From Candidatus Saccharimonadales bacterium (GTDB lineage: Bacteria; Patescibacteriota; Microgenomatia; Levybacterales; UBA12049), in contig DATIIS010000030.1 of NCBI GenBank assembly GCA_035479415.1, positions 864-64,863 of the forward strand: DNA of 64,000 bases. Reading direction: 5' to 3'. The stretch's first letter is position 1. Every line of letters begins with the position of its first letter. A program made the position numbers and the translations under genes. Positions 6,641 to 16,908 of the stretch are shown here, piece by piece. The notes under the pieces were generated by a model. That model searched no databases. It saw nothing but the letters and a program-made list of their open reading frames with translations, and had not been told where the DNA came from.

Positions 6641-6718
6641 CATAGGGACTCCGAAGGAGACTGGTTCGGAGTTACAGTAAATAAGTAGTAGCAGTCATTA
6701 TTGCCGAATCATCTAACG
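6641..6718 (+). repeat. Direct repeat copy 1 (73 nt identical core 6646-6718), ending with the first 17 nt of the tRNA-Gln sequence
   Basis: GGACTCCGAAGGAGACTGGTTCGGAGTTACAGTAAATAAGTAGTAGCAGTCATTATTGCCGAATCATCTAACG is identical to 6760-6832. It contains an 8-bp hairpin ACTCCGAA/TTCGGAGT. Confidence 0.95.
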
Positions 6719-6753
6719 TGGAGGCGACCGAAGGAAGGGCAGCCGAAGGCTGA

Positions 6754-6832
6754 CATAGCGGACTCCGAAGGAGACTGGTTCGGAGTTACAGTAAATAAGT
6801 AGTAGCAGTCATTATTGCCGAATCATCTAACG
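6754..6832 (+). repeat. Direct repeat copy 2 (core 6760-6832), fused to the functional tRNA-Gln
   Basis: Identical 73-nt core offset by 114 nt from copy 1. Identity stops exactly in the tRNA D-loop (after AACG, position 6832). Confidence 0.95.
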
Positions 6833-6886
6833 GTAGGATAGCGGACTCTGAATCCGTTCATCATGGTTCGAATCCATGTTCGGCAG
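6816..6886 (+). tRNA. tRNA-Gln (anticodon CUG)
   Basis: Manual cloverleaf. Acceptor TGCCGAA/TTCGGCA, U8, D-stem ATCT/GGAT with a GG loop. Anticodon stem GCGGA/TCCGT with loop CTCTGAA (U33, CUG, A37). T-arm CATGG-TTCGAAT-CCATG. U1-A72 and G73 as in bacterial tRNA-Gln. CCA is not encoded. Confidence 0.9.
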
Positions 6887-8386
6887 CACATCTGTACGCA
6901 CTTCTGGTTTTAGAAGCACATCATATGGTTTTTTGAAGCTAAAAGTAATCTTTTTATCCTTCAAGAAAAAGTTCTCACCAACCTTTTTAAGTATCCGTTG
7001 TTTTTGTTCTACAGAACCATTATTTATAACTTCACGAATCTGAAAAGCAGTATCAAAGAAGTCTTCAATAAGTTCTAACCAAGTTTTCATAGATGTTTGA
7101 TTATCTTGATATTTATCATCCATGGAAGCTAATTGATCAAGAAGTCGTTGTTTTTGGTCTAAAAACTCATCCTTTGTTAACTCTTCATTAGAACGCATCT
7201 CTACAAGTCTGTTTATCTTATCTCTCAAATTCTTTTGTTGTATTTGAATATATTGAAAATGAGTGTCATTTTTCTTTAATTCATCTTTATACTTTGCCTT
7301 AATAAGCTCTAGTCCTAGTTGCCATACCTCCTTGTCTATTTCTATCTGTAGTATCTGACCATATAGCAACTCCTTAAATTCAGTATCGGTTAAGGATTCC
7401 TCAGTGCAATTACCTTTTCTATGAGTGCAATGATGATAAATAAAATTTTTCCTTTCACCAGTTTTCTTAATCAATTTATCTTTAACAGTGGTTGTAATTG
7501 CACAGCCACAATTTCCGCATTTCATTAACCCTTCAAACTCTCTTTCCCAAGTAATTTTTTTTGGCTTTGATCTATCTTTTAATTTTTCTTGAACTAAATC
7601 AAATAGTCCCTTAGATACAATCCCTTCATGACTGCCTTCAAAGATCTCACCTTTTAAAGTAAAGTAGCCATAATAGACAGGATTGTGCAAAATAATATCA
7701 ATGTGACTTTTAGAAACTCTATTGCCTTTTTTTGTTCTAAGCCCTTCCTCATACATGATGTCTGCAATTTTCCCAAGTGAATAAATGCCAGTTGATGCAA
7801 GCTCAAAAGCTTTTCCAATTAAAGGTGCATAAATAGGATGAGGTTTAATATTTCTTTGCCCCCGCTCACCAAAGCCCTCATAACCTAAAGGAGCAGGCCT
7901 TGGATACTCCTTTCGGTCTACAGCTTTCCTATACAGACCACGTCTAACATTTTGACTCAAGGTACGTGAATATTGATTTGCCATACCGAAATGTATTTGG
8001 AGTATTAAATGATCGCTTTCAGGTGTATACACATCACCTAGAGGAGTTCTAATTTCCTTCAAAACACCATCTTGTAGCAATTGCAAAAGAATACCACCCT
8101 CTTTTGGATTTCTACAAAGCCTATCAGGTTTCCAAGTAAGAATTGCATTTGCTTTTCCTGATTTTATCAACTCTATCATTTGGTTAAACTTTTCGCGTTG
8201 GTCAGGCTTAAATGCACTTTTTTCTTCTTGGAGTTTATATTTAACTTGGAGATGCAATCTGACTTCAACTTCCTCAGACTCTTTATTTTGGTCTTTAATT
8301 GAGGCAACTTGTTTTTCTTTAGATTCAGACGATTTTCGTGAATACCGTATGTAAGTTAAATTATCCATATCAATATTTAATATCAC
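6827..8386 (-). CDS. Large serine recombinase (resolvase/invertase N-domain, recombinase domain, zinc ribbon, coiled coil)
   Basis: N-terminal YIRYSRKSSESKEKQ (catalytic Ser region) and WKPDRLCRN. Zinc ribbon CGNCGC...HHCTHRKGNC, then a Lys/Glu-rich coiled-coil tail. The last ~20 codons are antisense to tRNA-Gln. Confidence 0.85.
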   Translation of the reverse strand: MILNIDMDNLTYIRYSRKSSESKEKQVASIKDQNKESEEVEVRLHLQVKYKLQEEKSAFKPDQREKFNQMIELIKSGKANAILTWKPDRLCRNPKEGGILLQLLQDGVLKEIRTPLGDVYTPESDHLILQIHFGMANQYSRTLSQNVRRGLYRKAVDRKEYPRPAPLGYEGFGERGQRNIKPHPIYAPLIGKAFELASTGIYSLGKIADIMYEEGLRTKKGNRVSKSHIDIILHNPVYYGYFTLKGEIFEGSHEGIVSKGLFDLVQEKLKDRSKPKKITWEREFEGLMKCGNCGCAITTTVKDKLIKKTGERKNFIYHHCTHRKGNCTEESLTDTEFKELLYGQILQIEIDKEVWQLGLELIKAKYKDELKKNDTHFQYIQIQQKNLRDKINRLVEMRSNEELTKDEFLDQKQRLLDQLASMDDKYQDNQTSMKTWLELIEDFFDTAFQIREVINNGSVEQKQRILKKVGENFFLKDKKITFSFKKPYDVLLKPEVRTDVLPNMDSNHDERIQSPLSYR

Positions 8387-8459
8387 TTTTATTATTAACT
8401 ATAGAATTTTTAATATCTAGAACTTTTTGGTTCTTACACTGTACATTCATGGTTATACT

Positions 8460-8936
8460 TTACTTATTTTTTAAAAATGGTAAGGTCTCTCTTATTTCCT
8501 TTATTTTTTGATTTATTCGTTCTTTTTCTTCATCACTCATATTATTATAATTAGTATTATTAACTTTAGTATTATTAGGTGGAACTTTATTGCTTTTATG
8601 AGATGAAATATCTCTCGTAATAGTGGTGAAGTTTTTTTCACTATTGTTACTATCATTAGTGAAAATTTTTTCGTCATTAAATGTATAGAGATTTGATGTT
8701 GAATAACCACGTTTCTTATAATCTATAAAGCCCAATTGCTTTAGTCTTTTAAGATGCATTTGAATAGTTCTTTTCTTTTTACCTCTTAATCTTGCTATAT
8801 GCTCTTGAGAATAGAATATGCTATTGTTGCCAAATCTTAGGGATAATAAAACAAGAAGTGTTACAAGATCACCATCTGAAAGTTGATGGTTTTGAAGCAA
8901 CAAATTAGGTATTTGTGTAAAATTTATCATCTTCAT
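8460..8936 (-). CDS. Winged-helix/HTH protein (DnaD / HTH_36-like, possible replication or regulatory protein of the element)
   Basis: FTQIPNLLLQNHQLSDGDLVTLLVLLSL...EHIARLRGKKKRTIQMHLKRLKQLGFI matches the pattern of phage/plasmid HTH_36-type proteins. Confidence 0.5.
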   Translation of the reverse strand: MKMINFTQIPNLLLQNHQLSDGDLVTLLVLLSLRFGNNSIFYSQEHIARLRGKKKRTIQMHLKRLKQLGFIDYKKRGYSTSNLYTFNDEKIFTNDSNNSEKNFTTITRDISSHKSNKVPPNNTKVNNTNYNNMSDEEKERINQKIKEIRETLPFLKNK

Positions 8937-8953
8937 CTCAATGGCGTTTTCTA

Positions 8954-9184
8954 CTAAGAAAAGATTCTTCCTTTTAGCAACTTCATCGTGTTGCTATATT
9001 CTCTTGCGTTAATCATAAGACCTCCAAAAAAGAATTTGTTTGATAATGATTCACAGATATTTTTATTATCAAAAACAAACCAACATATGCCTTGTTCTCT
9101 TTCAATTTTTATTAAACTTTGTCCTTCAACAATTAAGGCTGCTGCTTCTGCAAGATCCTTAGTTCTATAAATATTTTGATTCAT
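8954..9184 (-). CDS. DUF5659-like small protein
   Basis: TKDLAEAAALIVEGQSLIKIERE...WFVFDN...GGLMINAREYSNTMKLLKGRI follows the DUF5659 pattern. The internal ATG (9184) is preferred over the ORF-track start at 9226. Confidence 0.55.
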   Translation of the reverse strand: MNQNIYRTKDLAEAAALIVEGQSLIKIEREQGICWFVFDNKNICESLSNKFFFGGLMINAREYSNTMKLLKGRIFS

Positions 9185-9338
9185 ATTTTTCTTTCCATTT
9201 AAACTTAATGATGTCTTCAATGACAATGGATAAGTTTATTGCAATTTCAAAGATTTCCTGTTCACTGAGAGGCCTTTTATAGCGAGGTTCAAAAATAGTT
9301 TTGATTTTTGTTTTTAAATTTTCATCTAACCATTCCAT
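9165..9338 (-). CDS. Small hypothetical protein (57 aa), below the ORF-track length cutoff
   Basis: Hand translation gives MEWLDENLKTKIKTIFEPRYKRPLSEQEIFEIAINLSIVIEDIIKFKWKEKYESKYL. Its 3' end overlaps the start of the DUF5659-like gene. Confidence 0.3.
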   Translation of the reverse strand: MEWLDENLKTKIKTIFEPRYKRPLSEQEIFEIAINLSIVIEDIIKFKWKEKYESKYL

Positions 9339-9423
9339 ATTAATCTTGGCTTTTGGCCATAGATTAATTTTCTCAAAAAATTTGGGCTACCTTATACATT
9401 TTTATTTTCTGAAGCCAAAAAAA

Positions 9424-9458
9424 CGGGAAAAAGTCCAGATTTCGGGAATGTGCGGGAA
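9424..9458. promoter_or_regulatory. Three CGGGAA (TTCCCG on minus) direct repeats upstream of the small-gene operon
   Basis: CGGGAA at 9424-9429, 9443-9448 and 9453-9458. On the minus strand they sit just upstream of a TTGGCT-N16-TATAAG promoter-like sequence. Confidence 0.35.
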
Positions 9459-9474
9459 TAATAAATTATTTTTG

Positions 9475-9948
9475 CTAATCATCCTCAGCAAGCGCTTTTA
9501 ACGCAGCTTCCACAATTGCTGAATCAGTTTTATGAGTAATACTAGTATCAATCTTTTGTACATAATCAAACCCAGCTCTTGATAATAAATCCTTTGCAGC
9601 TGTTATTTGAGATGGCCATGCACCTTTTGCTCTTACTGCTTCATTTAATTTAAGTACAGCATCAACAGCACCATCTTTGACTAATTGGTCAATTCGCTTA
9701 AATTGCTTGGCATACTCTTCTCTATGCTCCTTCATACGGTACTTATATGCCTCATAGAGCCTTCCATTTCTCGTGAACCATGATTTAACCGTTTGGTGCT
9801 CACGCTTTGCTTTAAAGGCAATTGAACGATAGGAGTATCCATGTACAGCCATATCAACATAGAGTTTGTCCTTATCGTCTTCTAGCGAGTCAAAAGCATT
9901 ATATATAGGGCGGTTGATATTGGTTGATTTTGGTAGTTTTGCAGCCAT
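9475..9948 (-). CDS. HTH protein resembling phage terminase small subunit
   Basis: HTH-like GYSYRSIAFKAKREHQTVKSWF and the C-terminal ITAAKDLLSRAGF motif, typical of TerS-type proteins. Weak, pattern-based call. Confidence 0.35.
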   Translation of the reverse strand: MAAKLPKSTNINRPIYNAFDSLEDDKDKLYVDMAVHGYSYRSIAFKAKREHQTVKSWFTRNGRLYEAYKYRMKEHREEYAKQFKRIDQLVKDGAVDAVLKLNEAVRAKGAWPSQITAAKDLLSRAGFDYVQKIDTSITHKTDSAIVEAALKALAEDD

Positions 9949-10020
9949 GCTTTTATTATCTCATGGAGAAAATTCAAAATTATACAATTCTAAATAAATG
10001 ATTATTTTGCTTATAATGTA

Positions 10021-10049
10021 CTGTGTTTTACTGTGTTTTTCTGTGTTTT
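10021..10049. repeat. Three helically phased CTGTGTTTT tandem repeats (iteron/operator-like)
   Basis: CTGTGTTTT at 10021, 10031 and 10041 (10-bp period). They lie just upstream of the minus-strand TATAAT (9979-9984) of the 9948 gene and downstream of the Cap15-like gene. Confidence 0.6.
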
Positions 10050-10086
10050 AGCCTCAGGTGTTATTAGGAGATTTATTGTAAAATGA

Positions 10087-10689
10087 CTACAAATCGTGCT
10101 TTAGTTGCTTAGATGAAAAGAGATATTCCATGTCTCCAGTATTGCCTGCGCTGTTGAAATATGTTCCTTTCAACTTTTTACTTTTACCCGACTCTACATA
10201 CTCAACTTTCGCCGTTCCCAAATGGTTCTTCATTTTTTCTTTGCTTTTAACTGCTATTTCACTGTCGTATGTGTAATAAAGGTATTGATTGTCACCTTCA
10301 TTTCCAAAAGATGCAATAACTTTTTTTGATTTAGATTCAGGAAAATAGGCTCTAAAAGAAATCTTTGAAAAGGTTTGGTCTATCTCCAAAGCACCTGGTA
10401 CTTCGGTATTCAATCCATTCTCCTTATGACTGGAAACGTGCTTACCTTCCCATCTGCCTTCCAAATTAGGTACCGTTACAACGCCAAAAAACCTAAAAAT
10501 GTTAATTTTCCACAAGTATATGTCAAACAAAATAAAGAGCAGTCCATAAATAACTAGAGGGGTTGGTTTATCAATCCACCATGGAAGATTGGGAATATAT
10601 TTATCAAATCCCGCAAGCCAAAGAGAGACAGTAGGTAGTAAGCCTACAAACAAAATTAAATGTGATAATTTTTTTAGGTCAACTCCCAT
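10087..10689 (-). CDS. 2TM plus beta-strand-rich effector (S-2TMbeta / Cap15-like) of a CBASS-like module
   Basis: Two N-terminal TM helices (LILFVGLLPTVSLWLAGF and LVIYGLLFILFDIYLW), then a ~130-aa beta-rich domain (EGRWEGK, ISFRAYF, LYYTYDSE, GTAKVEYV, KGTYFNSAGNTGDMEY). The start codon lies inside the end of the NTase gene. Confidence 0.6.
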   Translation of the reverse strand: MGVDLKKLSHLILFVGLLPTVSLWLAGFDKYIPNLPWWIDKPTPLVIYGLLFILFDIYLWKINIFRFFGVVTVPNLEGRWEGKHVSSHKENGLNTEVPGALEIDQTFSKISFRAYFPESKSKKVIASFGNEGDNQYLYYTYDSEIAVKSKEKMKNHLGTAKVEYVESGKSKKLKGTYFNSAGNTGDMEYLFSSKQLKHDL

Positions 10690-11587
10690 TTTTTACTTTA
10701 TACCATGCATCAGCAAGACGGATAAAGTTTCTGGCTTTCTCTGGTTTCCATTGATGCTGCATTGTGCCAAATAAATGATGCTGGTGACTTACGGTGAAAA
10801 AGGTTGATAAGTTCGGATGGCGTAAAATAAAATCTGTTATATACAAAAATGTTGATTTGTAGTCACCAACAAAAAGATTGTCAGGTACATTATAAATAAG
10901 ACACTCCACTGAATAAGAAGGTACATCTTCCATTTGTATCAAACTCAAATCAGCAAGTTCTCCTCTGATTCTTTTAAATATTCGGACAAAGTCTTTGTAT
11001 TTTCCATATGTTCTATTCTGATGATTTTTCCGAATACCATTCTCTTTATGTATCTTAGGATAGTTTGTCATCATTGTCCCATCAGATGTCCAAAAAGCTA
11101 TACCGCTCACAAAATCCTCTTTATTTAACATAGTAAAACTATTAAAGTTTTTATAGGTTATTGTTGGGACAACATCTGCATTAAGTCTACCAGCATTGCC
11201 TTTTACTTTAATCGCTTTGTTTCCAATATCTACGTTTGCATCTCCAAATTGACGCTTTAGTACGATTCCTACATCTTTTTTGAATAACTCCCACGTATAT
11301 GTAGCCGATGAAGGATATGCTATTTGGTACCACGATTGTTCTAAAGCTGATAAGTGAGATGTTCTTCCGCAAAAAGAGGACGTTAGTTCCAAAACCACAT
11401 CAATATCACTGTCTTCTTTTACATTTGTACTATTGAGATATGAACCTTGCAGATAAGTATCAAATGTTATGTCTGCAAAAGCACTGTTTCCGACTACTGC
11501 ATTTTTAATTTGTTGATATGCTTGCTCAGCACGGGTACTCCCTGGTGGATTTGCCAACCTTAAAAAATCGCTATGAACAAAGGCCAT
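10679..11587 (-). CDS. SMODS / CD-NTase-like nucleotidyltransferase
   Basis: Pol-beta NTase core YLQGSYLNSTNVKEDSDIDVV (GS...DxD), a third acidic strand LNADVVP, and the YSVECLIYNVP helix typical of SMODS/CD-NTases. Confidence 0.65.
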   Translation of the reverse strand: MAFVHSDFLRLANPPGSTRAEQAYQQIKNAVVGNSAFADITFDTYLQGSYLNSTNVKEDSDIDVVLELTSSFCGRTSHLSALEQSWYQIAYPSSATYTWELFKKDVGIVLKRQFGDANVDIGNKAIKVKGNAGRLNADVVPTITYKNFNSFTMLNKEDFVSGIAFWTSDGTMMTNYPKIHKENGIRKNHQNRTYGKYKDFVRIFKRIRGELADLSLIQMEDVPSYSVECLIYNVPDNLFVGDYKSTFLYITDFILRHPNLSTFFTVSHQHHLFGTMQHQWKPEKARNFIRLADAWYKVKNGS

Positions 11588-11692
11588 ATTATCCCAATAA
11601 GCATAGCACTGAATCTATATTAGTCAAATACTTGTGCTTCTAGTTAATAAAAGAGGCCTCAAGGTTAGTATGTACAACTATCTAGGTTAAAT

Positions 11693-12844
11693 TTATTGTT
11701 TACTTTCTTTAGTCAAAAAACTTACTGTGTTCTGGATTTCACTTTCGGATACAAATATTCCCTGAGCGCGAACTGGCTTTTGAAGTTCAGGTTCAAGAAA
11801 AAACATGTCACCTTTTCCAAGCAATCTATCTGTATCTGGAATATCCAAAGAGACACTATAATCTAATTTCCTTGGAAGAAATAAACCAATACGTGCTGGA
11901 ATATTAGATTTTATTTGAGGCGAGAATACCTCTGCATTTGGCTTTTGAGTTGCCAAAATCATATGTACGCCTGCACTATGACCAAGTCGTGTTATACGAA
12001 CAATTGCATCCTCTGCGTTCATGTAGGAGTCCTCTAAAAGTGCTTCCATGTCATCAATCACAGTGACAATATACGGTAATGCTTGGTAACCCATTATTTG
12101 GTTATATGAATCAATATTCCGTACTCCCTTTTCTGCAAAAGTTTTGTGCCGTCTATCTATTTCAGCCATTAACCATTTAAGTGCTGAGAGAATTTTTTCT
12201 GGTGCATTTAATGCAGGAGTCAATAAATGAGGGATACCATTGTAAATAGACATGTCAACATTTTTTGTATCTATAAGAATAAGCTTTACCTCTGTAGGAC
12301 TTGCTCTGAATAGGAGTGATGTAATAAAGGAGTTGATGACAGTTGTTTTTCCTGACCTAGCATTGCCTGCAATAAGAAGGTGAGGTAGTCGTGCTAAGTT
12401 AGTAACTAGAGGAAAACCTACAACATTCAACCCTAAAGGCAATGCAAGCTTTGATTTGGCTTGTTGCATAACTTGCGAAGATAAAACTTGTTTCAGCCTA
12501 ACTAGTTCTGAGGTGATGTTAACAATTTCTAAGCCAATAAGATTTCTCCCAGGAATGGGGGCTTCAATGCGAATTTGTCCAGTTGGAGCTTGTGTAGCTA
12601 AAGCTAAATCACCTGCTAGAGCAGTTACTTCAGAAATGCGAGTGCCAGCAGCGACTTCAATAGCGTATTGCGTAATTGTTGCTCCTAAATTTACTTCTGC
12701 AACCCGAGCCTCTACTCCAAAGCTTTTTAACGTTTTCTCTATTGTTGATGCAATACTCTTAATATCTCCCCGCTGTGCTTTTTCGCCAACAACATCAGAC
12801 AAAAGAGATAACGGAGGGTATTCCCATACAGCTGATTTATCCAT
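11693..12844 (-). CDS. FtsK/SpoIIIE-family ATPase, motor domain only (no TM, no gamma domain)
   Basis: FtsK alpha/beta pattern: PPLSLL..., EVNLGATITQYAIE, Walker A LLIAGNARSGKT, Walker B VTVIDDMEALL, ILATQKPN...IPARIG. 383 aa, ends right after the motor. Confidence 0.75.
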   Translation of the reverse strand: MDKSAVWEYPPLSLLSDVVGEKAQRGDIKSIASTIEKTLKSFGVEARVAEVNLGATITQYAIEVAAGTRISEVTALAGDLALATQAPTGQIRIEAPIPGRNLIGLEIVNITSELVRLKQVLSSQVMQQAKSKLALPLGLNVVGFPLVTNLARLPHLLIAGNARSGKTTVINSFITSLLFRASPTEVKLILIDTKNVDMSIYNGIPHLLTPALNAPEKILSALKWLMAEIDRRHKTFAEKGVRNIDSYNQIMGYQALPYIVTVIDDMEALLEDSYMNAEDAIVRITRLGHSAGVHMILATQKPNAEVFSPQIKSNIPARIGLFLPRKLDYSVSLDIPDTDRLLGKGDMFFLEPELQKPVRAQGIFVSESEIQNTVSFLTKESKQ

Positions 12845-12914
12845 AGTGCAAGTATATCAAAGAGTGAGTAATTTATTGAGAAGTACCTTCTATGGTAGAA
12901 TAATCTTGTAAGAT

Positions 12915-13154
12915 ATGAAACTTTTCAGGTATCGTAAACCGTCTTTGAACACATTACTAGGCGTTACTGCTGCAAAAAGACGATTTAGGAAAGCTGTTGG
13001 CATAAGCACATTTGAGAGATACACAAAACCCTCCAGAATTAAGCAAAGCTTTAAGCAAAAGCTGGGAATATATTCACCTACAATGACCTTAATACGACAA
13101 ACAAGCAAAGGTAATTTCCCAACTTTTTTGGGACTTTTTAAAAAGAGGAAATAA
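12915..13154 (+). CDS. Small basic hypothetical protein
   Basis: 79-aa Lys/Arg-rich ORF, divergent from the FtsK-like gene and preceded by TGGTAGAAT. No family recognised. Confidence 0.35.
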   Translation: MKLFRYRKPSLNTLLGVTAAKRRFRKAVGISTFERYTKPSRIKQSFKQKLGIYSPTMTLIRQTSKGNFPTFLGLFKKRK

Positions 13155-13243
13155 GATAATCAAAATTTCTAGACTTATAAAAAGTTCCTACATAGTCAAT
13201 CAGTGCCAGCAATGAATTTTAGCCTCAAAAATTTTTTACCTTT

Positions 13244-13272
13244 GAGCTCACCGCGAGCGAGGATTCGAACCA
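13244..13272 (-). other. tRNA 3'-end-like fragment (T-loop plus acceptor strand only)
   Basis: The minus strand reads GGTTCGAATCCTCGCTCGCGGTGAGCTC: a canonical T-loop, then 3' T-stem and acceptor-like sequence with no 5' partner. It differs from the tRNA-Gln 3' end. Confidence 0.3.
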
Positions 13273-13333: not shown

Positions 13334-14284
13334 TTAGTCCGGAATGAAATCTCTGGGTACATTGTTTATTCTATCCTGAATACTCACTTTGCTTACTATC
13401 TCTTCTGAAGTAGTTTTCGAAAATGAATCAACGATTTTAGTAAGTTCGTCCGGAGTAATACTCGTTTTATATTGAGATAATCCTCTTAGATCCAATTCAG
13501 GGGATGTAATGACAGTTGATCCGATTTTAAATGCAATAGTAACTTGAAAAAGATTATCTACGTCCTTTTGAGTCAACTGAGACAACATCTTAGGTTCGTC
13601 TTCTCCATCTATATATTTTCTATAAACTTTTATACCGTTAGGAGTAACAAAAAACATACATGCCTTATCCAATGCCCCCCAGTCGGGGTCGGATTGCTTC
13701 AAATCCTCGCAGGTTTGAGAATTCAGGATATTGTCATCTTTATATTCGGTAAAAGAAATGATATCAACAGGGCTTCCTCCAATTTCATCTCCGTTTGGTG
13801 GCTCATAGCGTAAAGTCAAATTTGTAGGCTTACCTATATCAGGGGCCGAGTCGGAAATATCCCAATCTTTCAAGGTAAACCCCTTGGGCATGAATGTTGG
13901 AGTATAAATAGCAAAACCAAGAGACCGTATCGATTGAGCATCTTTTTTTATAGCATTTATTACGATTGCTTTTTGCATAGCGTTATAATCATCTTTGTAA
14001 ATTTTTTCCTGAATCCATGGGCTAATTAAAGCTGCTAAAGCGAAAAGGATAAGAATATAAATAATGGTATGCTGTGCTTTATATACTTTTTTATTTTTTA
14101 TGCTTACAAAGGATAATATAATTCCGGCTAAAAGAAATACGCACCATTGGGATTCAAAAATATAATAAGCGATGCCTACATAAGGAGAAAAGAGAAAAAT
14201 TCTAAAAAGACCTTGAAAAATTGTATAAAGTCCCAAGTTCAAAAAAATTACCAATAAAATAATTTTGCGAGTTTCTTTAGGCAT
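13334..14284 (-). CDS. Hypothetical membrane protein with extracytoplasmic C-terminal domain
   Basis: 316-aa ORF with about four N-terminal TM helices and a soluble C-terminal domain (YTPTFMPKGFTLKDWD). No firm family. Confidence 0.55.
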   Translation of the reverse strand: MPKETRKIILLVIFLNLGLYTIFQGLFRIFLFSPYVGIAYYIFESQWCVFLLAGIILSFVSIKNKKVYKAQHTIIYILILFALAALISPWIQEKIYKDDYNAMQKAIVINAIKKDAQSIRSLGFAIYTPTFMPKGFTLKDWDISDSAPDIGKPTNLTLRYEPPNGDEIGGSPVDIISFTEYKDDNILNSQTCEDLKQSDPDWGALDKACMFFVTPNGIKVYRKYIDGEDEPKMLSQLTQKDVDNLFQVTIAFKIGSTVITSPELDLRGLSQYKTSITPDELTKIVDSFSKTTSEEIVSKVSIQDRINNVPRDFIPD

Positions 14285-16638: not shown

Positions 16639-16908
16639 CTATATAGTTTTTTTACTACAAAGAATTTCCTTTTGTTTGTGAGTTAATCTTTTTAATGTGA
16701 TTTCACGTCTAGCTGCAAGTAAATTTGATTCATGTTCTTCGAAATAATGTAATACGACGGGCCGTCTGATTTTTGTATATTTAGCGCCACCTGCTAATTC
16801 ACCATTATGTTGTCGTAGTCTTTTAGTAAGATTTATCGTTTTGCCAGTATAGTATGTGTTATCTGAACAGCGAACAATATATGTAAAATAGCTAGTTATA
16901 TCTGCCAT
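16639..16908 (-). CDS. GIY-YIG nuclease-family protein (UPF0213-like)
   Basis: YFTYIVRCSDNTYYTGKTINLTKRLRQHN ... KYT contains the GIY-YIG core. 89 aa. Confidence 0.75.
   Translation of the reverse strand: MADITSYFTYIVRCSDNTYYTGKTINLTKRLRQHNGELAGGAKYTKIRRPVVLHYFEEHESNLLAARREITLKRLTHKQKEILCSKKTI

What the first reader, a model, noticed from the sequence alone, without database searches (positions are those of the whole stretch)
6641..13272. tRNA-Gln-associated integrative island: serine recombinase, HTH/DUF5659/TerS-like genes, FtsK-like ATPase and a defence module, but no virion genes
From the tRNA-Gln to about 13.3 kb almost every gene is on the minus strand and none is housekeeping. The block holds a large serine recombinase, an HTH_36/DnaD-like protein, a DUF5659-like protein, an unannotated 57-aa ORF, a terminase-small-subunit-like HTH protein, the CBASS-like pair, an FtsK/SpoIIIE motor-only ATPase and a small basic protein. 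No capsid, portal, tail or lysis genes are present. The set recombinase plus Rep-like HTH plus FtsK-like translocase recalls actinomycete AICE-type elements. The set TerS-like plus integrase plus regulators recalls phage satellites. Either type would be poorly described for CPR-type bacteria.
Basis: partly seen in the sequence, partly recalled or inferred. Interest (0 to 1): 0.65.

Follow-up and report, generated by a model that had tools for sequence, protein, structure and literature searches.

The report
tRNA-inserted serine-recombinase defence element
This is a real 6.3-kb mobile element inserted at the 3' end of a tRNA-Gln gene in a Patescibacteria (CPR) genome; it carries an anti-phage CBASS system and an odd FtsK motor, and its serine integrase is unusual because the recombination site lies inside the integrase's own gene.

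Summary
The block is a discrete integrative element, and I mapped it more precisely to window 6884-13211 (6,323 bp). It is flanked by a 5-nt core, CAGCA, at 6884-6888 and at 13207-13211.

The large serine recombinase (LSR) belongs to a large Patescibacteria family. In about 24 of 30 fetched loci its 3' end overlaps an antisense tRNA (Gln, Asn or Trp).

The crossover lies at the last acceptor base, the discriminator and the next base of the tRNA, so the tRNA body stays intact. It also lies inside the LSR ORF. Integration moves the last 22 codons (ALIDYVGTFY...) to the far end of the element, at 13138-13206. The integrated gene then reads into antisense tRNA instead. Three uninterrupted attP-type junctions (L008, L044, L045) support this.

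The conserved core is orf57, DUF5659, an HTH_36 protein and the LSR. The cargo varies. Here it is a type I CBASS (CD-NTase plus Cap15) and a motor-only FtsK with altered catalytic motifs. Sister elements carry restriction-modification systems, a defence-type reverse transcriptase and similar genes.

The element fails the membership tests for AICEs and for phage satellites. No empty site was found. The closest relative carries the same LSR at the same site, with divergence like that of its host genes.

The parts
6816..6887 (+). tRNA-Gln(CTG), the integration target. It stays complete after insertion.
   Evidence: ARAGORN. Rfam tRNA model, 57.8 bits. The acceptor stem covaries with that of relative L042 (A6:U to G6:C), so the whole tRNA is host DNA.
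6884..6888 (.). attL core CAGCA: the last acceptor base, the discriminator G and the next bases of the tRNA gene. Read on the minus strand, it supplies the Leu codon of the LSR motif '...RTDVL'.
   Evidence: Read directly from the sequence. In 10 sister loci the proximal and distal junctions share the same short core (GCT[GC] on the LSR strand).
6827..8386 (-). Large serine recombinase in its integrated form (519 aa). Residues after ...RTDVL (PNMDSNHDERIQSPLSYR) are encoded by antisense tRNA. The real start is probably the ATG at 8368.
   Evidence: Pfam Resolvase, Recombinase and Zn ribbon domains. PHROG integrase, E = 7e-63. 352 homologues at E<=1e-20 were found, and the 120 listed are 50-86% identical. 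The tRNA-antisense tail recurs in homologues.
8460..8936 (-). HTH_36 / DnaD-like protein, a candidate replication-initiation or regulatory protein of the core module.
   Evidence: Pfam HTH_36, E = 1.8e-8. PHROG replication initiator or DnaD-like families, E = 4e-13. Homologues sit in the same position in L010, L033, L034 and L043.
8954..9226 (-). DUF5659 protein of the conserved core module. Function unknown; a candidate directionality factor or regulator.
   Evidence: Pfam DUF5659, E = 1.4e-4. Found next to the LSR in most loci and in 9 of 11 delimited elements.
9165..9338 (-). 57-aa conserved core ORF (orf57).
   Evidence: tblastn hits at 35-58% identity, in the same position, in nearly all LSR loci.
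9475..9948 (-). 157-aa HTH protein. It is specific to this element, and the TerS assignment is not supported.
   Evidence: Only weak PHROG hits, E = 1.8e-4 to 5.5e-3. No Pfam or NCBIfam hit. PDB terminase hit, E = 0.95. No homologue in the other loci.
10087..10689 (-). Cap15-type two-TM effector of the CBASS system (cargo).
   Evidence: Pfam Cap15_CD_rec, E = 4e-18. PADLOC 2TM effector, E = 8e-48.
10679..11587 (-). CD-NTase (CBASS cyclase) (cargo).
   Evidence: PADLOC cyclase, E = 1e-86. NCBIfam anti-phage nucleotidyltransferase, E = 3e-70. The GS...DxD motif is present in the translation.
11693..12844 (-). Motor-only FtsK paralogue (alpha plus beta domains; no 4TM, linker or gamma domain). 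Walker B reads DD instead of DE, and TQRP reads TQKP (cargo).
   Evidence: Pfam FtsK_alpha and FtsK_SpoIIIE. 55-58% identical to full-length Patescibacteria FtsK; 69% identical to a 382-aa motor-only protein, P0122. P0122 lies in a different LSR element at the same host site. The motif changes are shared with P0122.
12915..13154 (+). 79-aa basic ORF inside the element. No evidence that it is a gene.
   Evidence: ORF list. No hit in Pfam, PHROGs, PADLOC or NCBIfam.
13138..13206 (-). Displaced 3' end of the LSR gene (the P arm of attP). It encodes ALIDYVGTFYKSRNFDYLISSF plus a stop, in frame with ...RTDVL across the core.
   Evidence: Translation. The segment is conserved in 12 elements at the LSR-distal end. 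Variation concentrates at third codon positions (entropy 9.4 versus 3.6 and 4.2; permutation p = 0.002).
13207..13211 (.). attR core CAGCA, the distal end of the element.
   Evidence: Sequence. Conservation is lost sharply outside this point in all 12 elements.

Best explanation
Window 6884-13211 is a 6.3-kb integrative mobile element of a Patescibacteria-wide family.

Mechanism of integration:
- Its large serine recombinase recombines an attP site that lies inside the 3' end of its own ORF with an attB site at the extreme 3' end of a tRNA gene. Here the target is tRNA-Gln(CTG) and the core is CAGCA.
- Integration leaves the tRNA body intact.
- Integration separates the last 22 codons of the integrase (ALIDYVGTFY...) to the far end of the element. 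The integrated gene then ends in a tail translated from antisense tRNA.
- Excision would rebuild the full gene.

Content:
- A conserved module (orf57, DUF5659, an HTH_36 protein and the LSR) provides integration, regulation and perhaps replication.
- The rest is exchangeable cargo. Here it is a type I CBASS (CD-NTase plus the Cap15 membrane effector) for abortive-infection defence, a motor-only FtsK paralogue and an HTH protein.

Shown: the gene content, both junctions, the split ORF, the family-wide tRNA association and the variable cargo.
Inferred: that the element can still excise, how it moves between cells (no transfer genes; probably mobilisation, transformation or hitch-hiking), and that the C-terminal swap affects recombinase activity or directionality.
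For: - Gene and domain calls.
- LSR-tRNA overlap: present in the window and in about 24 of 30 loci of this LSR family, involving tRNA-Gln, tRNA-Asn and tRNA-Trp.
- Homologue C-termini: at least 97 of 120 homologues end in a tRNA-antisense tail or stop within 5 residues of the core Leu. Only 1 of 120 (P0101) has the LAL... attP-type end.
- Distal segment: a conserved segment lies 6-10.5 kb upstream of the LSR end in 12 elements, always on the LSR strand and in frame. It encodes LAL[VIT][DN]YVG[TN][FY]Y with third-position variation.
- Core: the two junctions share a short core in every element.
- attP-type junctions: uninterrupted P'-core-P junctions exist in L008, L044 and L045.
- Module structure: conserved core and variable cargo. 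Defence genes occur among the cargo of sister elements.
- Site turnover: a different LSR element occupies the same host tRNA in L043.
Against: - No empty attB site was found for this host or its relatives. L042, L043 and L022 are all occupied.
- No circular form of this particular element was seen.
- The closest relative has the LSR at the same site with divergence like that of host genes: 86% aa and 79% nt identity, against AsnS at 85% and 78%. The element may therefore have been inherited vertically for a long time and could be immobile now.
- Composition is only mildly different from the rest of the window: GC 0.341 versus 0.364, and 3 of 45 control windows are more distant in tetranucleotide usage.
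- attP-form junctions are rare: a first strict scan of JGI metagenomes found none and a relaxed scan found one, which is a remnant.
- The host-side half-site B' shows no conservation between hosts.
- AlphaFold2 gave no confident structure for the displaced tail: pLDDT 31-37.
Confidence: 0.85

Rival explanations
1. It is a fixed, domesticated remnant. An ancient insertion is now inherited only vertically, and the LSR is retained for another role or is decaying. The block is then effectively a chromosomal defence locus, not a mobile element.
For: - L042 carries the same LSR at the same tRNA, with divergence like that of host genes.
- Composition is close to that of the flanks.
- No empty site and no circular form of this element were found.
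Against: - The LSR ORF and the displaced 22-codon end are both intact, and the displaced end shows a purifying-selection pattern across 13 sequences.
- attP-type junctions, which only excision or circular forms can create, occur in three other loci.
- Cargo differs completely between sister elements.
- L043 has a different LSR at the same site.
Confidence: 0.2
2. It is an AICE-like conjugative element. The LSR integrates it, the HTH_36 protein replicates it, and the FtsK-like ATPase pumps double-stranded DNA into a recipient, as TraB does in actinomycetes.
For: - The gene set LSR, Rep-like HTH and FtsK-family ATPase next to a tRNA is present.
- Mycobacterium AICEs with serine recombinases inserted in tRNA-Leu are documented (PMC3218068).
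- A 69%-identical motor-only FtsK lies in another element at the same site.
- Patescibacteria have a monoderm-type T4SS (PMC12102498 abstract).
Against: - The ATPase is FtsK proper: E = 1.4e-67 to the FtsK model, against 36 bits for plasmid TraB, whose cut-off is 800. It is 55-58% identical to chromosomal FtsK.
- It has no TM anchor and no gamma or wHTH DNA-recognition domain.
- Walker B reads DD and TQRP reads TQKP.
- No FtsK is present in the 10 delimited sister elements.
- No RepSA, RepAM or Prim-Pol domain was found.
Confidence: 0.1
3. It is a phage satellite (PICI-like) that is excised, replicated and packaged by a helper phage of the Patescibacteria host.
For: - Small size (6-10 kb across the family).
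- Integrase, a Rep-like HTH protein and small regulators, including HTH_3 proteins in 5 sister elements.
- No virion genes.
- Defence cargo is typical of satellites.
Against: - The TerS similarity is not significant: PHROG E = 0.0055 and PDB E = 0.95.
- No capsid-remodelling or packaging genes.
- No relative of the LSR in IMG/VR viral contigs.
- No helper phage is known.
Confidence: 0.15

Closest known systems
Large-serine-recombinase integrative elements and prophages (phiC31, Bxb1, A118; the catalogue of Durrant et al. 2022, PMC10083194)
   Same: Same domain architecture (Resolvase, Recombinase, Zn ribbon with a long coiled coil). A short crossover core with no long direct repeats. attP lies next to the recombinase gene.
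   Different: - Known LSRs mostly target protein-coding genes. Durrant et al. do not mention tRNA targets.
- Hudson et al. [quoted passage not shown]
- Here the target is the last bases of a tRNA gene, and attP is inside the LSR ORF.
Mycobacterium AICEs with serine recombinases in tRNA-Leu, and phage phiRSM1 (small serine recombinase, tRNA-Ser)
   Same: Serine-recombinase-mediated insertion at a tRNA gene (PMC3218068; PMC4471427). The AICE gene set of int, rep and an FtsK-like tra gene resembles the window's gene list.
   Different: - Different phylum.
- The FtsK here is a truncated housekeeping-type motor, not TraB.
- There is no RCR Rep or Prim-Pol.
- FtsK is not a family-wide component.
- The papers read do not describe a split integrase ORF for those elements.
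Archaeal 'suicidal' SSV-type integrases (SSV1, pTN3, pT26-2)
   Same: attP lies inside the integrase gene. The elements insert into tRNA genes, and integration partitions the integrase gene (PMC8371274).
   Different: - Those are tyrosine recombinases, and they are reported as exclusive to archaea.
- Their gene is cut into two inactive halves.
- Here the enzyme is a bacterial serine recombinase. Only the last 22 codons are removed, and they are replaced by a tRNA-antisense tail.
Type I CBASS with a Cap15 effector
   Same: A CD-NTase plus a two-TM Cap15 receptor/effector, with no Cap2 or Cap3 genes.
   Different: Nothing unusual in the system itself. What is notable is the context: cargo of a 6.3-kb element in Patescibacteria.

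Membership tests
Large serine recombinase (serine integrase) element | Resolvase catalytic domain with the conserved Ser, plus Recombinase and zinc-ribbon domains | tested here: met
   Pfam PF00239, PF07508 and PF13408. Y15, R17 and S19 are invariant in 23 homologues.
Large serine recombinase (serine integrase) element | attL and attR share only a short core; no long direct repeats | tested here: met
   The core CAGCA occurs at 6884-6888 and 13207-13211. Cores of 4-7 nt are shared in 10 sister elements.
Large serine recombinase (serine integrase) element | attP and attB can be reconstructed and are observed in nature | tested here: inconclusive
   attP-type junctions were seen in L008, L044 and L045. 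No empty attB was found in the relatives fetched or in two JGI scans aimed at attP.
Large serine recombinase (serine integrase) element | Recombination directionality factor | not testable with these tools
   orf57 and DUF5659 are conserved neighbours and are candidates only.
AICE (actinomycete integrative and conjugative element) | TraB-type FtsK-like translocase with a membrane anchor and a C-terminal DNA-recognition wHTH | tested here: not met
   No TM and no gamma domain. NCBIfam plasmid_TraB scores 36 bits against a cut-off of 800, while the FtsK model gives E = 1.4e-67.
AICE (actinomycete integrative and conjugative element) | RepSA, RepAM or Prim-Pol replication protein | tested here: not met
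   Only a 158-aa HTH_36 protein is present.
AICE (actinomycete integrative and conjugative element) | Site-specific integration in a tRNA gene | tested here: met
   Insertion at the tRNA-Gln 3' end.
Phage satellite (PICI / P4-like) | Packaging hijack genes (TerS, capsid-size redirection) or another helper-exploitation module | tested here: not met
   TerS hits are not significant. No other virion-related hit.
Phage satellite (PICI / P4-like) | Induction and packaging by a helper phage | not testable with these tools
   No LSR relative in IMG/VR. This result is limited by the search patterns used.
Type I CBASS | A CD-NTase adjacent to an effector, without Cap2 or Cap3 | tested here: met
   PADLOC cyclase, E = 1e-86. 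2TM effector, E = 8e-48. The two genes overlap by 11 nt.
Suicidal (SSV-type) integrase | attP inside the integrase ORF, so that integration splits the gene | tested here: met
Suicidal (SSV-type) integrase | Tyrosine recombinase of the Phage_integr_3 type, archaeal host | tested here: not met
   This is a serine recombinase in Patescibacteria genomes.

The most novel reading that the evidence does not exclude
A widespread Patescibacteria family of large serine recombinases is a bacterial, serine-family counterpart of the archaeal 'suicidal' integrases. It targets the terminal bases of tRNA genes, and attP lies inside its own ORF. Each integration therefore exchanges a conserved C-terminal peptide (ALVDYVGTFY...) for a tRNA-antisense tail. 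This isoform switch would act as a built-in control of integration versus excision for small elements that shuttle defence systems among CPR bacteria.
Probability: 0.35. Interest if true: 0.8.

Novelty: new variant of a known kind. Interest (0 to 1): 0.62.

Why it matters
- Mobile elements of Patescibacteria are barely described. This gives a precisely delimited family with a conserved 2.5-kb core, 6-10.5 kb total size and hundreds of members. The family moves defence systems (CBASS, restriction-modification, a defence-type reverse transcriptase).
- It extends the known target range of serine integrases to the 3' terminus of tRNA genes. This was once stated to be unknown for the family (PMC4383910) and later called rare (PMC3218068).
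- It shows a bacterial integrase whose attP is inside its own gene, a layout reported as exclusive to archaea (PMC8371274).
- The predicted att sites are short and explicit, so the system can be tested directly. It could also supply new tRNA-targeting integrases as tools.
- The motor-only FtsK, with DD and TQKP motifs conserved in two elements, is a separate puzzle.

Tried and rejected
1. Crossover in the tRNA D-loop, with the 73-nt repeat (6646-6718 and 6760-6832) as att sites. Rejected. The repeat is upstream of the tRNA and outside the element, and relative L042 lacks it. The GCA_964464865.1 contigs simply break at this repeat.
2. Crossover in the T-loop, with 13243-13272 as the displaced tRNA end or a half-site. 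Rejected. The true distal junction is 32 nt further in. No displaced tRNA 3' copy exists in the window or in any locus.
3. FtsK as a truncated host gene, with the 316-aa TM protein (13334-14284) as its lost N-terminus. Rejected. FtsK lies inside the mapped element. The TM protein has only one homologue in 5.8 billion proteins.
4. Search for phage relatives in IMG/VR. None found.
5. JGI metagenome scans for uninterrupted attP forms. The first found nothing. A relaxed pattern found one remnant, L045.
6. AlphaFold2 model of the attP-form LSR (P0101). The body is good (mean pLDDT 80), but the displaced tail is unstructured or low-confidence. No structural inference was drawn and no fold search was run.
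7. PDB sequence searches. The LSR gave no hit at E<=1e-3. The hits of the HTH protein to designer PPR proteins have no passing stretch and are spurious.
8. Rfam search and folding of the upstream repeat. Only the tRNA matched; fold z = -1.7.
9. Distal junction of the second LSR family (L034 group). The boundary of homology was seen, but no split ORF was evident. Not pursued.

Full report
**Observation**

- LSR, 6827-8386: Resolvase, Recombinase and Zn-ribbon domains.
- HTH_36 / DnaD-like protein, 8460-8936.
- DUF5659 protein, 8954-9226.
- 57-aa ORF, 9165-9338.
- 157-aa HTH protein, 9475-9948.
- Cap15 two-TM effector, 10087-10689.
- CD-NTase, 10679-11587.
- 383-aa FtsK with alpha and motor domains only, 11693-12844.
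- 79-aa basic ORF on the plus strand, 12915-13154.

No virion or lysis family was hit. The single tRNA of the window, tRNA-Gln(CTG), lies at 6816-6886/7. It overlaps the 3' end of the LSR ORF in antisense. The last 18 residues of the annotated LSR (PNMDSNHDERIQSPLSYR) are a translation of antisense tRNA.

**Source and assembly**

The window is 99.99-100% identical to GCA_964464865.1 where the two overlap. In that assembly, one contig ends at window position 6718 and another starts at 6834. The break sits at a perfect 73-nt direct repeat (6646-6718 and 6760-6832), whose last 17 nt are the first 17 nt of the tRNA.

The closest relative found, L042, lacks this 175-nt pseudo-tRNA insertion. There the promoter-like sequence TTTTAGTA[C/A]AATAGCTTCATT directly precedes the tRNA. 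The repeat is therefore a separate feature upstream of the tRNA and is not an att site of the island.

**The LSR family and its tRNA habit**

The LSR has 352 homologues at E<=1e-20, and the 120 listed are 50-86% identical. The few that carry a source name are labelled Patescibacteria, Microgenomates, Curtissbacteria or Pacebacteria. An alignment showed that many of them also end in a tRNA-antisense tail (xDSNxx...LSYH).

I fetched 36 loci from species-representative genomes. In about 24 of the 30 loci of this LSR family, the LSR 3' end overlaps or abuts an antisense tRNA or a recognisable tRNA 3' part. The tRNA is usually Gln(TTG or CTG). It is Asn(GTT) in one subgroup, and Trp(CCA) in the WWE3- and Saccharibacteria-labelled loci L028-L031.

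Of the 120 homologues, at least 97 end in such a tail or stop within 5 residues of the junction.

No relative was found in IMG/VR viral contigs.

**Finding the far end**

No displaced tRNA fragment exists on the LSR-distal side in any locus. All-against-all DNA comparison of the loci and an alignment of three of them exposed a conserved segment. The segment marks where similarity between elements stops on the distal side.

The same segment, ctgGCACTGATTGACTATGTAGGAACTTTTTAT on the LSR strand, occurs in the window at plus-strand coordinates about 13175-13209. It also occurs in L006, L007 (twice), L008, L012, L014, L016, L018, L023, L029 and L032. It is always on the LSR strand and lies 6-10.5 kb upstream of the LSR end.

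**The distal segment is coding**

- Joined through a shared Leu codon to the LSR's '...YRT[D/N]V', it encodes LAL[V/I/T][D/N]YVG[T/N][F/Y]Y followed by a short variable tail and a stop.
- Variation concentrates at third codon positions: summed entropy is 9.4, against 3.6 and 4.2 at the first and second positions (permutation p = 0.002).
- The 33 nt outside the segment are unrelated between loci.

**Core and boundaries**

The two junctions of each element share only a short core. It reads GCT[G/C] on the LSR strand, which is [C/G]AGC in tRNA sense. These are the last acceptor base, the discriminator and the next base.

In the window the core is CAGCA, at 6884-6888 and at 13207-13211. The element is therefore 6,323 bp and contains every gene of the finding, including FtsK.

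In several hosts the distal flank begins with CCA. The insertion therefore replaces an encoded CCA end with element sequence while leaving the tRNA body intact. The acceptor stem covaries between the window and L042, which confirms that the whole tRNA is host DNA.

**Direct evidence for the predicted attP**

Three loci hold the uninterrupted junction.

- L008 has a 45-residue LSR C-terminal remnant running straight into the P-arm segment (...YRTDVLALVDYVGTFYSSR*). It lies just outside a complete element.
- L044 encodes a full LSR (P0101, 517 aa) ending ...YRTNVLALINFVRTYYREIPGIYQNFLSI*.
- L045, from a JGI metagenome, has a decayed LSR end followed by ...YRTDVLALVDYVATYY.

Such junctions can arise only from circular forms. 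They may also persist in tandem copies made from circular forms.

**Element anatomy**

Across the loci, the conserved part is orf57, DUF5659, an HTH_36-like gene and the LSR. Small HTH_3 regulators occur in five elements. Everything else varies: 81 of about 130 ORFs in eleven delimited elements are singletons.

Cargo of sister elements, includes:
- a type II restriction-modification set with Vsr;
- a reverse transcriptase matching PADLOC defence-RT models (best hit RT_VI, E = 2e-71), plus two HTH_VI hits;
- a KAP NTPase, Mrr, DUF4238 and deaminases;
- one tyrosine integrase.

The window's cargo is a type I CBASS, a 157-aa HTH protein found in no other locus, and the FtsK motor. The 'TerS-like' reading of the HTH protein is not supported.

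**The FtsK protein**

- It is 55-58% identical to full-length Patescibacteria FtsK proteins of 600-670 aa that carry the gamma domain. It is 69% identical to one other motor-only protein, P0122 (382 aa).
- P0122 lies in L043. L043 is a relative with the same host flank (gltX, PAP2, DAGK, then tRNA-Gln). Its LSR is only 26% identical to the window's but also overlaps the tRNA.
- Both motor-only proteins start at the alpha domain and stop before the gamma domain. Both carry Walker B DD instead of DE, and TQKP instead of TQRP.
- The protein scores as FtsK, not TraB.
- It is a conserved, truncated, catalytically altered paralogue carried by elements at this site. Its role is unknown.

**Age and mobility**

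- L042 carries the same LSR at the same tRNA, at 86% aa and 79% nt identity. This matches its housekeeping genes (AsnS 85% aa, 78% nt).
- L022, a more distant relative with the same host flank, also has a family member there.
- Island composition is only mildly atypical.
- I found no empty site.

This argues for long residence in the lineage. Against a dead relic stand four points: the LSR is intact, its displaced end is intact and under selection, L043 has a different LSR at the same site, and cargo turns over between elements.

**Comparison with known systems**

- This is a serine-integrase integrative element.
- tRNA targeting by serine recombinases was stated to be unknown in 2015 (PMC4383910). 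Ghinet et al. called it rare and cited Mycobacterium AICEs in tRNA-Leu and phage phiRSM1 (PMC3218068 and PMC4471427).
- The large LSR survey of Durrant et al. does not mention tRNA targets.
- An attP inside the integrase gene is the hallmark of the archaeal 'suicidal' SSV-type tyrosine integrases, which are reported as exclusive to archaea (PMC8371274). Here the same layout occurs in a bacterial serine recombinase, but only the last 22 codons are exchanged.
- The element fails the defining tests for an AICE (TraB-type translocase, Rep) and for a phage satellite (packaging or hijack genes).

**Verdict**

The island as such is an ordinary kind of object: a small integrative element with defence cargo. 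Its integrase system is a new variant: it targets the tRNA 3' terminus, attP lies inside the integrase ORF, and integration swaps the C-terminus. The family is widespread in a phylum whose mobile elements are poorly known. Whether the C-terminal swap controls directionality, how the element transfers, and what the altered FtsK motor does all remain inferred or open.

Noticed in passing
window 6641-6832: A 175-nt insertion lies upstream of tRNA-Gln and is absent from relative L042. It contains a perfect 73-nt direct repeat (6646-6718 and 6760-6832) ending in tRNA nt 1-17, plus degenerate tRNA-like pieces (ATAGCGGACTC, TGGTTCGGAGTT). These amount to tandem pseudo-tRNA-Gln fragments. There is no Rfam match, and public assemblies break here.
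   Followed up: partly
L007 11563-12020; L037 10252-10683: In two other LSR loci, duplicated 5' parts of the tRNA lie upstream of the occupied tRNA. A small GIY-YIG ORF (about 80 aa) sits between the duplicate and the real tRNA. This may be a separate tRNA-associated GIY-YIG mobile cassette in Patescibacteria. The window has a GIY-YIG gene at 16639-16908 with no tRNA fragment beside it.
   Followed up: partly
window 13243-13272 (+); L023 about 936: An antisense tRNA 3'-end-like fragment (acceptor 3' strand, T-stem 3' strand, T-loop) lies 32 nt outside the element's distal core. It forms a 19-nt, 84%-complementary inverted repeat with the T-arm of tRNA-Gln. L023 has a comparable fragment 73 nt outside its distal junction. 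Unexplained.
   Followed up: partly
window 11693-12844; P0122 in L043 3178-4326: The motor-only FtsK proteins share substitutions at catalytic motifs: Walker B DE to DD, and TQRP to TQKP. All six full-length FtsK homologues aligned keep the canonical motifs. The motor-only proteins may be slow or regulatory ATPases, or decoys.
   Followed up: partly
L034, L036-L039, L041, L043: A second, distant LSR family (26-36% identity) is found near tRNA-Gln. Its ORF overlaps the tRNA 3' end in L034 and L043 and lies 72-115 nt from it in L037 and L038. The L034, L036 and L038 elements share homology over only about 3.85 kb. L043 occupies exactly the same host tRNA as the window's element.
   Followed up: partly
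window 13334-14284 (-): A 316-aa protein with four N-terminal TM helices lies just outside the element. It is an orphan: one homologue (67% identity) among 5.8 billion proteins.
   Followed up: yes
L007 2104 and 2829; L022 888-1268; L018 4275-5069; L032 15914-17455; L033 16159-17643: Several loci hold extra distal-end segments, LSR fragments or a second LSR gene near the main element. This suggests repeated insertion and decay at these sites.
   Followed up: no
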